In this document: positions 4,605 to 46,195 of the stretch, one piece after another | Layout of the letters: each line of letters begins with the position of its first letter | How positions within the stretch are numbered: the stretch's first letter is position 1 | NCBI GenBank assembly: GCA_951406725.2 | Contig: OX597816.1 | Coordinates: 180,172,001 to 180,236,000, forward strand | Length of the DNA stretch: 64,000 bases | Source of the DNA: Octopus vulgaris | Taxonomy: Eukaryota | Reading direction: 5' to 3' | Translations under genes and position numbers: made by a program | Notes under the pieces: generated by a model | What the model was told of the DNA's origin: nothing | What the model saw: the letters and a program-made list of their open reading frames with translations, nothing else | The model's database searches: none

Positions 4605-5070
4605 TTGTTTAGATATACTCAGTATCTACTTATGAGCTATTAATAGTTTCATACATTGAAGAAATCATCTGGGCAAATTTTAAAACACACCTAGTGTCTC
4701 CAAGTAATCTCCAGGTGCTGGGCACATAGCTTATACAAGTTACAAATCCAGACAATAGAACAAGAGAAATCCCAAGAAGATGCAATTGGGTTCAGAAGGT
4801 GGAATGGTGTTCCTTCTTTTATTTTTCCTTTCTTTTTCTGTTTTTCTTTTTTTATCACCATTCCTCCTTTCGAACCCAACTTCATCTTGTCTTTTTCTTT
4901 CATGATTACTCATGTTCAACTCTCCTGATTTGTAACTTATATAGGCTATGTGTCCAGAGCCTGAAGATTACTTGGAGACACTAGGCATGTTTTAAAACTT
5001 GCCTAGATTATTTCTCCAATGTATAAAACTATTAATAGCTCATACTTATATAACTTGTACATTAAACAAT
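4605..5070. repeat. diverged fold-back element (~200-bp inverted arms)
   Basis: atgagctattaatagtttc...ctagtgtctccaagtaatct recurs as its reverse complement at ~4900-5045. Confidence 0.75.
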
Positions 5071-5653
5071 ATTTATCTCAGCAGATAATCTTTGTTAATC
5101 TTACCTTAACAGAAAAGTAAACTATTTGTGTGTGTATGTATGCATGTTCATATACACACACATATTGCTGTATCTCGAAGGGGTTTCACCTCTTTATTTT
5201 TATGTGACAATTGACTAATTAACTAACCAATTGTCTAATCGACTTTGATTAATTGTTTGGTTAATCAACCATTCAGCTAAAACTATGTGGCAAGTCCTTG
5301 CATCTCATTTACAATCTCATCAATGACATGCCCTCTCTACTCCAGGTCTGTTTCAAGTCAACTTGACTTTGACATAAGCATGGCTGTATGGTAAGAAGTT
5401 TACTTTCCAATGGTAAGAAGTTTGCTTCCCAACCACATGGTTCCGGGTTCAGTCCCACTGTGTGGTGCCTTGCATCTTCTACTTTAGCCTCAACCTGACT
5501 AAAACCTTGTGAGTGGATTTGGTAGATGGGAACTGAAAGAAGCCTATCATGTGTGTGTGTTTTATATGTATATATCTATATAATCGAGCTATCTTTCTCT
5601 ATCTGTCTCTTTGTCTATCTATCTGTCTATCTATCTATCTATCAGTCTATCTA

Positions 5654-6713
5654 TGAGGTGGTATCAAAAGGTTCCCAGACTCTCTTACTCTTTTACTCTT
5701 TTACTTGTTTCAGTCATTTGACTGCGGCCATGCTGGAGCACCGCCTTTAGTCGAGCAAATCGACCCCAGGACTTATTCTTTGTAAGCCCAGTACTTATTC
5801 TATCGGTCTCTTTTGCCGAACCGCTAAGTGACTATTTAAGTTTAATAAAAATTAATTTATTTACCATTATTACCTGTTTTAACATCATCACCTTCAAAAT
5901 AGTCACCTGGTGCAGCAGTTCACCCATCCCAGTGTTCCTGCCACTTTTGGAATCCAGCATGAAAGTTATTTTCTGTAAACGAATCGAGGACCTTCTGCAA
6001 TTTGCTCTGCATCTCAACAATGGTATTAAAATGGCGATGTTTAAGCTACGTTTTCATCTTGGGGAAGAGATGAATGTCAACAGGTGCTAAACCTGGTGAA
6101 TAGGGAGGGTGCAGAAATGATAATATGTTACGTTTTTGGCAAGAAACTCCCAAGTGAGGAGAGCTCAGTGACTGAGACCATTGTCGATGTGAAGAATCCA
6201 TTTCTTTGCATTCCACAGACCCAGTTGCTTTCACCAAATGTCCTCCCTCAAACACTGCAAAATGTCACAGGAGAACTCTCAATTGATGGTCTGGCTCTGA
6301 GGGATGAATTCTCAATGCACAATGCCACATTTCTGGGGGTAACACTCATGGCAGATCTTCCCGGGGCAATCTTCCATTTTTGAAGTACCCATGTCACTTG
6401 CAACATTTTATATGATCTATTGCCTCATTTCCTATAAGCTTGCCAAAACATGCTCAATATCTCTGTAGCAGACTTCCCAAGTTTAACTAAAAATTTCACA
6501 TTGCTTTTTGTTCCTGTCCACATGAGAAAATCACAGACTACAGCAGACACATGATCACAAAAACGCAAATTTCACCACTTGCAAAGTGAGCACAGCAATG
6601 TCACTCAGCACACTGCCTCATGACAGTCACTGCTCACTCTCACTGCACATGCAACCATGTGCTGCCATCTGTTGTTGTGCAACAAAAGTATTCCAGGAAC
6701 TTTTTGGTACCAC

Positions 6714-6717
<4 letters not shown>
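5654..6717 (-). mobile_element. degenerate mariner transposon with nested SINE (5681-5830, -)
   Basis: TIRs tgaggtggtatcaaaa / tttttggtaccacctca flanked by TA; ORF with HPPYSPGLAPVDIHLFPKMK (mariner YSPDLAP motif). Confidence 0.85.
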
Positions 6718-6757
<40 letters not shown>

Positions 6758-7847
6758 AGTGTGTATTTTATATATATATATCTATGTATGTATGTGTGTG
6801 TGTGTAGAAATGATTGATTTTAAATTACTATTTTCCTGAAGTAGCCATGTTATATATTGGTAAAAAGATTCCTTATCTTTTTTTCTCCTTTTCTGAGGTG
6901 GGTTGGAGTGGTGGTAGAGCATCATTTTGCTAGGTCTAACATCATTTCCTGGTCCATGGATGCTTTTAAGTGATATGTATGTGTATATATGCACGTGAAA
7001 TGCATATGTGTATGTATGTGTACATGCACATATATTTAGATATGCATAGCTATGTGTGTATACATCTATGAGTGTGTAAAAGTATGTGTGCATTTATACA
7101 CAACAGTACTGTGTTATTTCCTGCTCCCAGTTTCACTGACTCAAATTACAAATCCTATTAATCACAAGTGATTAATATTTCTGAATTCAAGGATACTTCA
7201 GGCACAATGCCATTTATGACTATACATAAACTGGCATTTTGCAATGATAAAATATACCATCATGTGCATATTGTTAATAATACTTAGTAAATTTATGCTA
7301 CTCAATTGAGCTAACCATTTAAGCAAAATCCGGTTGTTACCTCCCTCACATTGTCATATTGTGCTTATAACAAGACACTTTATGATTCAGCGTTGGTGTT
7401 TTATGTATAGTCACACATAGCATTACATCTGAAAGATCTTTGAATTCAAATATATTAATCGCTAGGATTAATAAGATTTGTAATTCGTCCACAGAATCTA
7501 ACAGTAGTGAATAACATATATCCATTTTATACTGAATAAATAAACATCCTCATTCTATGGAATTACCAAGTTTTCTCTGTTTCAGTCTGTTATCATTTGC
7601 TGACAACAAGCAGGCTTTATCATCATTATCGTTATCTTTTAATGCCCATTTTTCCATACTTGCATGATTTAGATACACTGTCAACAACATTCTTCTTTAA
7701 GAATAATATATACATGTGATGTGTGTGAAAGTATGTGGCTTGGTGGTTAGGGTATTAAGCTCATGATTGTAAGATTATGAGTTCGAAAACTGACCACGCA
7801 TTGTATCCTTGAGCGTTGTATCACATTTATATACATATATATATATG

Positions 7848-8026
7848 TACCGTTGGCGATTTTTTTTCCTCTGTCTTCCCTTCTCCCATGTTTCCGACGA
7901 AGAGCTCCGCTCAAAAAGTTAAACCCTCCTTCTTCCCTTCCTTCCTGAGCGTCCAATAATACTGTATTTGTTCCACGTCCTTGCGTTGTTGTGTTTTCTC
8001 TTTGTGTTTTCATGTTTGGATTAACT
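7848..8026 (+). mobile_element. short non-autonomous PLE-like element with decayed HHR (7890-7924)
   Basis: homologous to 43326-43530(-); gttt-CCGACGA-a-gagc-tcc-gctc-AAAAA-gtt-aaac; TA on both sides. Confidence 0.6.
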
Positions 8027-18020: not shown

Positions 18021-19941
18021 TAAGAAAGTTGGTTTGTGAAAGCACGTGGTTGAATATATAGAAAATAGTAAAAAGTGAAAAAACTACAGAAGGCTTAAAG
18101 GTTAAAAAATATATTTGCGTCAATATGTCGGTAGAATATTAAAAATTTTTTTCCTTACAATGACATAATTTAGAAGAAAGACTGGTTTCGCGTTTAGCTT
18201 TTCAAATTTCTTACGACGTTATGTTTATGTTGAATAGAGTTATCGTTATGTTTATGTTTAAAAGAGTTCTAAATAAGGGGAGGTAATGAGTGATTTCTTC
18301 CGGTGTAAGGGAGATAATCGCTTAAAATTTTTTTCCTTTCCCTTGGTGTGAATTTCTCTGTATCAGTATGTTGGCATGGTTAAGTCTGGGCTTGTGCTTT
18401 TCAATGAAGAGTGTTTCCTTGTTTAGTCTAATTTGTGTTGATGATCCGATAGCACATTGGTAAAATGGAAAGATTAAAAATTGTGGTAGTAGTTGCTTTG
18501 CGCATTTCTCAATGTGCTCACTAAAAGGTATCATTCTGTATTCTGGGAATGCAATCTGTTGTCGATGCAGTGTGCATCTATGTCTGAGTGATAGTCCCGT
18601 GGATCCCACGTAGTCTTGGTGGCAGCCTGAGCATTTTATGACATAAATTGTTTTCAGAGGCACAAGTAAAGTTAGATTTGATCTTGAATTTCTGTCCCTC
18701 TTTAAAGAGGAATTCTGATCCTTCTAGCAGGTTTGGACATGTTGTACAGTTCGATCTACCACATTTTTTTACTTTTGCATCCGTAATTTCAGAAAACAAT
18801 TTTGCCTTTGTGAGAATCTTTTTAAATGATTTAGGTTGTTTGTAGCTTTTAATGATTTGGTGTATGTTTAGAATTTCCTTTAATTTGGGGTCCTTATGAA
18901 GTATTGGTAAATTCTGGGTGATGATGGTGAAGGCTTCTTTGTTTCTGGGGTTGTATGTAGATATGTAAGGTAGTATTTTCGGGGAAGGTGTGTTGTGGTG
19001 TTGAACTTTTCTTAAAGTTTCTATGTTGATTTCTGTTGCACGTCTGATCCCATCCTCTATGAGTTGAGCTGGGTAATGTCTGTCAATTAGGGTGTTTTTG
19101 AGTTCTTGCAGTCTAAAGTTCCTGGTATTTTGTTCTGACACTATTGTGCATATCCTTCTTGCAAGGTTGAAGGGGATGTTTGTTTTAGTGTGTCTTGGGT
19201 GGCATGAATTAAAAGAAGGTATTGTTTGGCGTCTGTGGCTTTGTAAAAAACGTCTGTTTCTATTTTAAGGTTAATTTTTTTAATTAGTATATCCAAGAAC
19301 GGGAGCTCCTTTTGGTTGTATTTCATTGTGAACTGTATATTTGGGTTTATGCTGTTCAATAGGTTTTTAAATTTTATGAGTTTATCTGTGTTTTCATTCC
19401 AGAGTATAAAACATTCGTCTAAGGATCGTTTCCAATTCTATTTTACGTATTGAGAAAGGGGGTTTCCAAAGATTGATAAAGATTCCTGGTAAATGATTAT
19501 TTCCATGTAGCCCATTGTTAGGTTCGCAATGACTGGTGCTGCCCTTGTACCCATAGCAATTCCGGATTTTTGACGGTAAAATGTATTGTCAAACATGAAG
19601 TAGTTATTATGTAGGATGAATTCAATTGATTTAGTAATGAATTCTTTACTGATCCTTTTTGGTATTTCTTCCGGAAATTGGTCCAGCCAGAACTGTATTG
19701 CCTCTAGTCCATAATTATGAGGTATACTGGTATATAAGTTAACTACATCAAATGAAACCAGGATTGTTTCTTCCTTGGCTTTTTTTGGAAGGTGGTTTAA
19801 CATATCTAAGTCATCTCTGATATGGCTATCGATATGTTTAAGGAAGGGTTTCAGGAGGATGTCCATAATTAGACTTAGTCTGTGTGTTTCACAGGTTGGG
19901 CCAGCTACAATGGGTCGTAGTTTTAGGTCCCCCGGGTTAGG
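18020..19941 (-). mobile_element. 5'-truncated Penelope-like element (Neptune/Nematis type; RT, Zn knuckle, GIY-YIG), frameshifted
   Basis: LRPIVAGP, SFDVVNLYTSIP, GIAMGTRAAP, LPFLDILI, KCGRSNCTTC, IYVIKCSGCHQDYVGSTG; TA arrays on both sides. Confidence 0.92.
18174..18212 (-). ncRNA. minimal hammerhead ribozyme-like motif in PLE 3' pLTR (variant core)
   Basis: aagaaa-t-TTGAAAA-gc-taaac-gc-GAAAC-CA-GTC-tttctt; 6-bp stem I. Confidence 0.55.
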
Positions 19942-20024: not shown

Positions 20025-20674
20025 CATGAGAATTTACAAAACCAGGAACGGGCCTTATTGTCCGAATGGTAGATGAGCACACACCCAAACAGCTGTTTTA
20101 TGGCAAGCTGGCAGAAGGGAAATGCAATCGGTGTAAACCTAAAAAGAGGTTTAAAGACGGCATAAGGACTACCATGAAGTCACTTGGAATGGATCCAAAG
20201 GCCATAAAAATGCTTCGGATCAAGCTGGATGGTGAACAGATGCATGGAGTGGAGTAAAAGCATTTGAGGAGGCCAGGATAACATACGCAAGACTGAAAAG
20301 AGATTTAAAGAAGAATGTTGTGATTGAGAAGGTGAATCTCAATAACCTTTTTGTGTGCACAGTTTGTGACACATCAAGCCTTTCTTTTGCTGGGCTCAAA
20401 TCTCATTTGAGGACCCATGAAAAACAAACCTCCACCAGCTATTCTGCCTATATATCTCTGCACACCTTTCAATGCCATGTATGCTATATGGTCTGCAATT
20501 CTAATGGAGGCCTTAAAATACATTTTAAGATCCACAAAGATCAGAACTCAACTGCAGTTCTTGATGGTCCAAATCGGATCTGCACTCTATGGGGGTGTCT
20601 TTTCAATACATTGTCTGGTTTAAAAAGCCACATTAGATGCCATGATGAACATAAGGTATAGGTACCAACAACCA

Positions 20675-20677
<3 letters not shown>
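20023..20677 (+). mobile_element. 3' fragment of RTE/BovB-like LINE with three C-terminal C2H2 zinc fingers
   Basis: IVRMVDEHTPKQLFYGKLAEGKCNRCKPKKRFKD (RTE C-terminus), then CTVC..HLRTH, CHVC..HFKIH, CTLW..HIRCH; TA flanks. Confidence 0.8.
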
Positions 20678-20731
<54 letters not shown>

Positions 20732-20946
20732 CTTATGTCATATATATATATATTTATATATATATATATCCAGATTCTTCCATTTTACTCAGTGAAATAT
20801 TCATCCATTCCCTGGCACTAGATGGGTTGTTCCACCCTGCAGCAAGATTAAAGGGAGTCCCTAAATCATTGCACTGTTTGTGTTTGTTCATTCCTTTCCA
20901 TTTTGTCTTTTGGTCTCATTTATAAATAGAAAGAGGAGAGAATGAA

Positions 20947-20997
20947 AGCTTCCTGATGATTTCATTTGAATGAAGCAGTTCTAGTCCTGTAGAAGCT
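20947..20997 (+). ncRNA. type I hammerhead ribozyme
   Basis: agcttc-CTGATGA-t-ttc-attt-gaa-t-GAAG-cag-ttctagtc-ctg-TA-gaagct; all three stems present, one core change (A15.1 to G). Confidence 0.7.
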
Positions 20998-21035
20998 CCT
21001 TCTATAAAATAAATAAATATATATATATATATATA

Positions 21036-21442
21036 CTCTTTTTACTTGTTTCAGTCATTTGACTACGGCCATGCTGGAGCACCGCCTTTAGTCGAGCAAA
21101 TCGACCCCGGGACTTATTCTTTTTTTTTTTGTAAGACCAGTACTTATTCTATCGGTCTCTTTTTGCCAAACCGCTAAGTGACGGGGACGTAAACACACCA
21201 GCATCGGTTGTCAAGCAATGCTAGGGAGACAAACACAGACACACAAACACACACACATACATATATATATATACATATATATGACAGGCTTCTTTCAGTT
21301 TCCGTCTACCAAATCCACTCACAAGGCATTGGTCGGCCCGGGGCTATAGCAGAAGACACTTGCTCAAGATGTCACGCAGTGGGACTGAACCCAGAACCAT
21401 GTGGTTGGTTAGCAAGCTACTTACCACACAGCCACTCCTGCG

Positions 21443-21445
<3 letters not shown>
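21036..21445 (-). mobile_element. young full-length tRNA-derived SINE (main family)
   Basis: near-identical to 36265-36686; TA on both sides. Confidence 0.9.
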
Positions 21446-21482
<37 letters not shown>

Positions 21483-21617
21483 CTTATGTCATATATATAT
21501 ATATATAAAAACCTTATTTTATATATATATATAAAACCTTATTTTATATATATATAAAACCTTATTTTATATATATATATAAAACCTTATTTATATATAT
21601 ATATATAAAACCTTATG

Positions 21618-21652
<35 letters not shown>

Positions 21653-21741
21653 CTTATGTCATATATATATATATATATATATAAAATAAAACCTTATGTC
21701 ATATATATATATATTTATATATATATAAATAAAACCTTATG

Positions 21742-21794
<53 letters not shown>

Positions 21795-21802
21795 ACCTTA
21801 TG

Positions 21803-21832
<30 letters not shown>
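21446..21832. repeat. compound minisatellite: AAAACCTTATGTCA/AAAACCTTATTT spaced by (TA)n
   Basis: about 9 units; the same unit also occurs at 20727-20740. Confidence 0.85.
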
Positions 21833-21836
<4 letters not shown>

Positions 21837-22030
21837 TTAGACGTTGGAATAACCATATAAAGGATATCACCAAATATGATGATGATTATTATCAGAATAT
21901 CAATAGCCATACCATACAACGTTGAAAGCCGGAACAGCTGTTAGATGGGATGCAGTCTATTTGTATTGAATTAAAAAAATAATAATTGATGTAAGTCAAT
22001 TGTTGTTGATCAATATTTCTCCTTTTTCTG

Positions 22031-22068
<38 letters not shown>

Positions 22069-22069
22069 T

Positions 22070-22260
22070 TATGATGGGGAGCTGAAAAGTTCCTTAAAGA
22101 GTATCACAACCTTCCAAGTTCTTTTACAGGGTTTAGAAAAACTGAAGGGCAGCTGCAATAAGTGTGTGAATCTGAGAGGGGATTATGTTAAATAAATCAT
22201 AACTGATCCTTCTGTGTTTTCTTTTACCCAAAGCCAGGAACTTCTCAGCTCCCATTTCTG
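22070..22260. mobile_element. mariner-derived MITE
   Basis: ggggagctgaaaagttcc / ggaacttctcagctccc inverted termini. Confidence 0.6.
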
Positions 22261-22380
22261 TATATATAGAATACTATATATATGTTATACACAGACATAT
22301 ATATCACTCTTTCTCCCCTGCCACCTTCTCTCAACACTCCCACTTATATTCAGTCTCTTTACTTTCAACAGCAAATCAGT

Positions 22381-22430
<50 letters not shown>

Positions 22431-22987
22431 AATCACACACTCACACTTTCCCTTCCATCACCCTCTCTTCACTTACTCTCTCTTCCTTCACCCCTGCTTT
22501 CCATCACTCAGTTCACTTCTATTATCGCTTTCATTCTCTCCTCTTTCTATTTATAAATGAGACCAAAAGACAAAATGGAAAGGAATGAACAAACACAAAC
22601 AGTGCAATGATTTAGGGACTCCCTTTAATCTTGCTGCAGGGTGGAACGACCCATCTAGTGCCAGGGAATGGATGAATATTTAACTGAGTAAAATGGAAGA
22701 ATCTGGATAAAAGACAGTGTCTCTATTGTTGGTGTTATGATAAAATGCACCAAGTACTTGGCAATAAAGTGGTCAGCCATAGGAAATGTAAAACCTATGA
22801 GCAAGACATGGTACCCAACCCATCCATGAGACAGTAACTTCAAGACATAGGTTGAAATGACCTATCCACATCATATAACTCGAGAAAAGCAAATGCAAAA
22901 TTATGACCATATCACACACACACACACACATACACACACACACACATACACACACACACACATACACACACACACACAAACAATACG

Positions 22988-27471: not shown

Positions 27472-30280
<2,809 letters not shown>

Positions 30281-46163: not shown

Positions 46164-46195
46164 GGGATTTGGCAAGCAAGGATTTCAGTGCAAAG
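46164..46195 (+). CDS. 32-bp internal exon of a conventional protein kinase C (PKC-alpha/beta/Apl I-like), C1A domain
   Basis: tttgcag|GGGATTTGGCAAGCAAGGATTTCAGTGCAAAG|gtgagt has canonical splice sites. It reads (W)GFGKQGFQCK(V), matching the cPKC C1A motif FIWGFGKQGFQCxVC, with the short exon size and phase I recall for cPKC exon 2. Confidence 0.88.

What the first reader, a model, noticed from the sequence alone, without database searches (positions are those of the whole stretch)
20770..22707. Hammerhead fused to an inverted 180-bp copy of nearby genomic DNA
Seen: 20770-20949 is a near-perfect reverse complement of 22528-22706. It joins, within the agc of stem I, directly to a near-canonical HHR (20947-20997) and an A-rich end, and the whole cassette lies inside a TA array. 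Inference: a PLE-type cDNA truncated at the HHR switched template to local chromosomal DNA, so ribozyme elements could capture host sequence. The pair also forms a long dsRNA stem in the PKC pre-mRNA.
Basis: partly seen in the sequence, partly recalled or inferred. Interest (0 to 1): 0.75.

Follow-up and report, generated by a model that had tools for sequence, protein, structure and literature searches.

The report
Penelope insertion patched with nearby DNA
A short piece of a common Penelope-like jumping gene sits in a kinase intron joined to a backwards 183-base copy of DNA 1.6 kb away, likely a patch copied while the insertion was being sealed; such patches are known from other jumping genes and occur in 3 of 150 other copies examined here.

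Summary
20767-20949 is a 183-nt inverted copy (2 mismatches) of 22527-22709, found only twice in the genome search. It is fused through a 5-nt microhomology (AAAGC) to a type-I hammerhead motif, inside a TA array, in intron 1 of a conventional PKC gene. The hammerhead is the tail-less pLTR arm of an abundant Hydra-like Penelope element (2,693 exact hits of a 33-mer). Copies of that family are usually two head-to-head arms, one tailed and one tail-less, in (TA)n. Here host DNA stands where the tailed arm would be. Three of 150 other copies also carry a 100-170 nt near-identical host patch at the junction: two copied from 1.4-1.8 kb away, one from another chromosome. Best reading: templated end-joining while the insertion was sealed (about 0.6). 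The ribozyme is probably a bystander: the junction lies 42-46 nt from the cleavage site, at the family's usual junction hotspot, and this copy has G at a core position that is A in nearly all others. The patch was not spread further. Flank-templated 5' junctions are known for L1 and ZfL2-2, and host capture for rotifer Penelopes. New member of a known kind.

The parts
20677..20769 (.). Left TA array (target), with an AAAACCTTATGTC unit shared with the array at 21445-21833
20767..20769 (+). TAT microhomology between the TA array and the copied segment
20767..20949 (+). Inverted 183-nt copy of 22527-22709 (2 mismatches); the templated patch
20945..20949 (+). AAAGC microhomology shared by the source DNA and the element; the family's junction hotspot
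20945..21014 (+). Tail-less pLTR arm of a Hydra-like Penelope element
20947..20997 (+). Type-I hammerhead motif; core CTGATGA 20953-59; G instead of the family's A at 20975; predicted cut after 20991
   Evidence: activity not tested
21018..21035 (.). Right (TA)9 flank
21036..21444 (.). Unrelated multicopy interspersed repeat, apparently inserted in the same TA array (borders approximate)
   Evidence: many hits in the window
22527..22709 (-). Source (original) copy, continuous with unique flanks on both sides
46164..46195 (+). 32-nt exon 2 of a conventional PKC gene; places both arms in intron 1 (about 66 kb)

Best explanation
This is a truncated insertion of a Hydra-like Penelope element in a TA array, and its free cDNA end was likely sealed to the other side of the break by a short patch copied from the neighbouring chromosome. 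Inferred steps: (1) the element's endonuclease cut the TA array; (2) the right-hand end primed reverse transcription at the inner, tail-less start site and copied about 70 nt through an uncleaved hammerhead to AAAGC; (3) the cDNA 3' end paired by 5 nt with the same strand 1.6 kb away (snap-back on exposed flank DNA) and was extended 183 nt, which gives the inverted orientation; (4) the new end paired by TAT with the left TA end and the gap was filled. Shown: the anatomy, the family, both microhomologies, the recurrence. Not shown: the order of events, the polymerase (host polymerase theta-type or the element's RT), and the template molecule.
For: The patch is unique in the genome search and the arm is highly multicopy. 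The usual insertion is a tailed arm plus an inverted tail-less arm in (TA)n (antisense tail within 900 nt in 59 of 79 tail-less arms). Either arm can be the longer one, and tail-only stubs join full hammerhead arms (L021, L028, L029; L116, L117). That rules out simple fold-back on one cDNA and fits separate priming from both ends, as the anole PLE protein does in vitro (both strands extended, two RT start sites, uncleaved RNA used; PMC11167929). Lone tail-less arms between TA arrays exist (7 of 79). Three of 150 other loci carry a 95-99% identical host patch at the junction with 2-4 nt microhomologies: L103 (112 nt, direct, source 1.7 kb away), L202 (109 nt, direct, 1.4 kb), L058 (170 nt, other chromosome). 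In those three the patch lies between two arms, so an element end must have switched onto host sequence. Patch divergence (2 of 183) and arm divergence (1 in about 70) are of similar size.
Against: The window's layout (no tailed arm, inverted patch) was not seen again in 150 loci; the other two local patches are direct and sit between two arms. Orientation does not tell which end primed, so geometry does not prove snap-back. No empty site was seen, and TA arrays hide any target-site duplication. AAAGC is common (19 sites within 4 kb either side), so the microhomology alone is weak. No contig bridged the hammerhead junction by 31 nt or more.
Confidence: 0.6

Rival explanations
1. The left end of the break primed reverse transcription on nascent PKC pre-mRNA (+ strand) instead of element RNA. 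The 183-nt host cDNA then met the element cDNA head-to-head at AAAGC, just as two element arms normally do.
For: The patch occupies the place of the tailed arm and meets the other arm at the usual hotspot. The locus is in PKC intron 1 on +, the strand this route needs. L1 insertions with two oppositely oriented cDNAs from different RNAs are described (PMC11702581, section 7).
Against: Patches between two arms (L103, L202, L058) cannot be first-primed cDNAs and need a switch by an already extended end. The anole protein needed its own RNA motif for activity (PMC11167929). No expression data were obtained.
Confidence: 0.17
2. An ordinary palindromic insertion came first; it later broke (hairpin or TA fragility) and host repair replaced the tailed arm with a copy of local DNA. 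The element's enzymes played no part in the copying.
For: The join is at the centre of the usual palindrome. Fragility of TA arrays and perfect palindromes is recalled, not tested. Sequence alone cannot date the two pieces apart.
Against: Lone tail-less arms are a normal outcome, so no lost arm is needed. The three other patches sit between two retained arms with little loss. Both pieces are about equally young.
Confidence: 0.17
3. Assembly artefact: a chimeric or folded-back read put the 183 bp next to a hammerhead copy.
For: TA-rich region; contigs of four runs (X2, X3, X4, X7) pass through the source unbroken and show no junction.
Against: A contig of run X1 joins the 183 bp to 24 nt of TA array with the same interruption as 20743-20766 and reaches 1 nt into the hammerhead. 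Contigs of X5 and X9 break at the repeat borders. The two arms differ at 2 sites, and each variant is seen in other runs. X1 could be the assembly's own sample; its letters differ from each window copy at one site, whereas X7 matches the source exactly.
Confidence: 0.04
4. The 183 bp is a normal part of the element or a retrozyme body that usually precedes this hammerhead.
For: None found.
Against: Only two copies; none of the other loci examined has it upstream; the source copy has no hammerhead and runs into unique flanks.
Confidence: 0.01

Closest known systems
Hydra clade of C-terminal GIY-YIG Penelope-like elements (PMC8557442, section 11 read, other passages seen)
   Same: C-terminal endonuclease, CxCX5C linker, no CCHH motif, hammerhead in the pLTR, (TA)n targets, inverted 5' copy with a tail on one end only.
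   Different: Copies here carry a long microsatellite-rich stretch before the pLTR, and most insertions are 150-250 nt two-arm palindromes. Templated host patches at the junction were not in the passages seen.
Flank-templated 5' junctions of LINEs: ZfL2-2 5' extra nucleotides (PMC4245944, passages) and L1 insertions with sequence templated from nearby genomic DNA (PMC11702581, section 7 and passages)
   Same: A retroelement 5' end joined to the target through a copy of neighbouring DNA, with microhomology; a minority outcome.
   Different: Here the element is a PLE, the target a TA array, the patch 100-183 nt and its source 1.4-1.8 kb away or on another chromosome.
Host DNA capture by Adineta vaga Penelopes (PMC3846280, passages)
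   Same: Host sequence found within PLE insertions; inverted pLTRs with palindromic junctions; 5' joins by microhomology.
   Different: There the host DNA lies between pLTRs of mobile or trans-mobilised units (0.9-1.5 kb spacers, a whole gene). Here it is a single-copy junction patch that has not spread.
Anole Poseidon in vitro mechanism (PMC11167929, parts 1-3 of 4 read)
   Same: Both strands cut and extended, two RT start sites explaining tailed and tail-less ends, AT-rich targets, hammerhead cleavage not needed.
   Different: Another clade; junction repair and host patches were not studied.
Polymerase theta / SD-MMEJ templated insertions (search listing only; details recalled)
   Same: Direct or inverted (snap-back) copies of flanking DNA bounded by microhomology.
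   Different: Recalled as usually shorter and much nearer the break than 183 nt from 1.6 kb.

Membership tests
Penelope-like element (endonuclease-bearing) | RT plus GIY-YIG endonuclease in one ORF, in sense with the pLTR | tested here: met
   423-aa open frame in L097 with YRDDG and a C-terminal YIG region; pieces at 86-98% identity lie in sense with a hammerhead arm in L033-36, L065, L078, L093, L168; atlas neighbours at 0.93-0.98 carry RT, GIY-YIG and PF26215 labels in part of their members. Pfam itself gave no RT or GIY-YIG hit.
Penelope-like element (endonuclease-bearing) | Inverted 5'-truncated copy, with a tail at one end only | tested here: met
Penelope-like element (endonuclease-bearing) | Hammerhead motif in the pLTR | tested here: met
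   Core and three stems present; variation in 154 copies falls at N7, loop II and the truncated 5' end.
Hydra clade | CxCX5C linker before the endonuclease | tested here: met
   CNCPDKTTC in L036 and L065; first C changed in L034, L035, L097
Hydra clade | No CCHH motif; CxxC and CxH flanking the conserved E and N | tested here: met
   No cysteine pair between the GIY- and YIG-like strands; CDLC before E and CMH after N, read by eye
Hydra clade | Insertion into (TA)n | tested here: met
Hydra clade | N-terminal RWK and DKT motifs; place in an RT tree | not tested
   No full-length copy was recovered and no tree was built.
Hydra clade | Short element (<3 kb) | tested here: inconclusive
   Long copies span 4-7 kb but include microsatellite tracts and nested repeats.
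Active hammerhead ribozyme (this copy) | Intact core including A at position 15.1, and self-cleavage | tested here: not met
   G at 20975 (5 exact copies genome-wide). That this impairs cleavage is recalled; activity was not measured.
Non-LTR retrozyme | Tandem repeats of a hammerhead-bearing monomer | tested here: not met
   Single copy; the 183 bp is not repeated with the hammerhead.
Templated insertion at a retroelement 5' junction | Near-identical source elsewhere and microhomology at both joins | tested here: met
Templated insertion at a retroelement 5' junction | Formed in the same event as the insertion (empty allele, no intermediate allele) | not testable with these tools
   Contigs do not bridge the TA array.

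The most novel reading that the evidence does not exclude
The PLE reverse transcriptase itself, priming from both ends of a cut TA array, jumps from its RNA onto chromosomal DNA or nascent host RNA 1.4-1.8 kb away, or on another chromosome. It would then write 100-180 nt host patches into about 2% of insertions, seeding new intronic inverted repeats. The thousands of short two-arm insertions in this genome would be a natural record that settles how PLE inverted ends form.
Probability: 0.2. Interest if true: 0.65.

Novelty: new member of a known kind. Interest (0 to 1): 0.36.

Why it matters
The single event is a minor scar. Its value is as evidence on an open point, how PLEs form and seal their inverted 5' ends (called unresolved in PMC8557442). 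This family gives thousands of short, young insertions whose two arms look separately primed, and a few percent carry host patches with traceable sources. A genome-wide count could tell DNA from RNA templates and host repair from RT jumping. As a side effect the event made a 183-bp inverted repeat in a PKC intron, a possible RNA-editing substrate, but such repeats are common here.

Tried and rejected
Rfam gave no hammerhead hit. Pfam gave nothing useful for the parent ORF. The RT ORF in L033 (weak RVT_1; no PDB hit) proved to be another PLE nested in or joined to that copy. My first label 'Neptune-type' was dropped after reading PMC8557442. A transcription start at AAAGC (27 nt after a TATAAAT box) may explain the junction hotspot, but so may the AAGCTT palindrome; not resolved. 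A pattern enriched for odd junctions gave 26 hits; 9 were fetched for this test and none held host DNA. Candidates dropped before the count of 3: L045 (88% match to a common repeat), L077 (internal 98-nt inverted pair, probably another element; not searched genome-wide), L185 (no source above 85%), L084, L127, L142, L154, L175 (no TA array or element sequence on the left, no local source), L160 (complex, unresolved). The forced hammerhead pairing was wrong and was redone. The script stopped at L077 and was finished. The output was cut, so its count is a minimum. No RNA holder listed. Earlier findings of this scan: none returned. Literature searches showed no paper describing flank-templated patches at PLE junctions or this family; most subscription papers are not covered and no supplements were read (the family lists of PMC8557442 may include it). 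10.64898/2026.07.22.740005 (passages) and PMC2912911 (passages) added nothing specific; PMC4209133 (passages) gave the hammerhead background.

Full report
Observation. The inverted pair is 20767-20949 and 22527-22709: 183 nt, 1577 nt apart, two mismatches. A search of the own genome (2.8 Gb, 227 contigs) with the 177-nt core returned these two places only. The next 70 nt match a very abundant sequence: 2,693 exact hits of a 33-mer, 0 for the reversed control. The copy at 22527-22709 is the original. It runs into unique flanks, and contigs from other runs continue through it. Both copies lie in intron 1 of a conventional PKC gene on the + strand: exon 1 (RRGALRQKNV...QPTFCSHC) 20 kb left of the window, a 32-nt exon at 46164-46195, and a C1b exon 120 kb to the right.

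What the hammerhead belongs to. [quoted passage not shown] The linker CNCPDKTTC, the lack of a CCHH motif, CxxC and CxH around the last conserved residues, and the (TA)n targets match the description of the Hydra clade (PMC8557442, section 11). The N-terminal motifs and a tree were not tested, so I call it Hydra-like. The genome resembles that of an octopus (recalled, not tested).

How the family normally inserts. Most insertions are two head-to-head arms in a TA array. One arm ends in a tail of about 60 nt; the other stops after the A-rich stretch. Of 79 tail-less arms, 59 had an antisense tail within 900 nt and 7 stood alone between TA arrays. Either arm may be longer, and tail-only stubs join full hammerhead arms. 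Fold-back on one cDNA cannot give that; separate priming from both sides of the cut can. This fits the anole PLE protein, which extends both strands and starts at two sites on uncleaved RNA (PMC11167929). Of 220 arms, 97 begin within -3..+8 of AAAGC, 39 of them at the AAGCTT palindrome. The window's arm is thus an ordinary tail-less arm with an ordinary 5' end; only its partner is unusual.

The junctions. Source and element share AAAGC (20945-49); source and left array share TAT (20767-69). The predicted cleavage site is after 20991, 42-46 nt away, and the arm is intact across it. This copy has G at 20975, seen in 5 exact copies genome-wide, where at least 97% of 154 sampled copies have A. Nothing ties the capture to ribozyme cleavage.

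Recurrence. I fetched 71 regions covering 98 of the first 100 listed hits, and 79 of the 100 listed (152 in all) hits for a tail-less end. Three of these 150 have a host patch with a near-identical source. L103: 112 nt, 95%, direct, source 1.7 kb away. L202: 109 nt, 96%, direct, source 1.4 kb away. L058: 170 nt, 99%, source on another chromosome. All three lie between two arms, with 2-4 nt microhomologies. This is a lower bound: I examined only the stretch between the hammerhead and the nearest upstream TA run, and searched 4 kb each side. The three local sources (with the window's) all lie 1.4-1.8 kb away, which is suggestive on so few cases. The window's own layout, inverted and without a tailed arm, was not found again.

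Is it real? A 214-nt contig from run X1 joins the core to 24 nt of TA array carrying the same interruption as 20743-20766 and reaches one letter into the hammerhead. Contigs of X5 and X9 stop at the repeat borders, as a branch would cause. X2, X3, X4 and X7 run through the source unbroken, which does not prove absence because contigs drop variants. The hammerhead junction was not bridged by 31 nt, and no empty site was seen. The insertion's G at 20794 is shared by source copies in other runs, and 20828 is a CpG site, so the two mismatches look like one change on each copy or standing variation. The event is young.

Mechanism. Most likely the right end primed a short cDNA whose 3' end snapped back onto its own strand at AAAGC, copied 183 nt, and then paired with the left TA end (0.6). 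The three between-arm patches show that element ends do switch onto host sequence in this family. Orientation alone cannot say which end primed, so a cDNA made on nascent PKC RNA from the left end (0.17) and later repair of an ordinary palindrome (0.17) remain open. Artefact is unlikely (0.04).

The RNA stem. The arms could pair in the pre-mRNA (duplex -336 kcal/mol), but at least 29 of 150 fetched loci hold a non-family inverted pair of 60 nt or more at 94% or more. No RNA evidence was obtained.

Novelty. Flank-derived 5' additions are described for ZfL2-2 (PMC4245944, passages), nearby-DNA templated insertions for L1 (PMC11702581), and host capture for rotifer Penelopes (PMC3846280, passages). 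My searches found no report of such patches at PLE junctions. It is a new member of a known kind, useful as a handle on PLE integration rather than a new system.

Noticed in passing
genome-wide; e.g. L004-L032, L044-L114, L127-L205: The family forms very many 150-250 nt two-arm palindromes in TA arrays, with junctions clustered at AAGCTT just after a TATA box; a good dataset for dual-end priming of PLEs.
   Followed up: partly
L058:4020-4196, L103:3845-3960, L202:4110-4218: Three further host patches bridging the two arms; one comes from another chromosome.
   Followed up: yes
L055, L071, L077, L098:4096-7454 and several flanks: Other palindromic or inverted structures anchored in TA arrays, probably further PLE families with the same habit.
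   Followed up: no
window 20677-20769, 21018-21035, 21445-21833: These arrays share the unit AAAACCTTATGTC(AT)n and may be one array split by the PLE cassette and a second repeat; a further templated piece cannot be excluded.
   Followed up: partly
window 18581-19588 (-) and 28264-29730 (-): RT-like ORF remnants that resemble by eye the other PLE-type ORF seen in L100.
   Followed up: no
window 20030-20660 (+): Decayed LINE 3' ORF fragment (RT C-terminal and zinc-finger-like) just left of the TA array.
   Followed up: no
L033:3943-6119 and L100:4002-6324: Different PLE ORFs nested in or joined to copies of this family.
   Followed up: partly
L158 and L159, about 4660-8001: Near-identical tandem and inverted 535-nt units beside the element in two loci 14 kb apart.
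   Followed up: no
L106, L111, L113, L063: Short (8-20 nt) duplications of element sequence at the arm junctions, typical of repeated re-priming.
   Followed up: no
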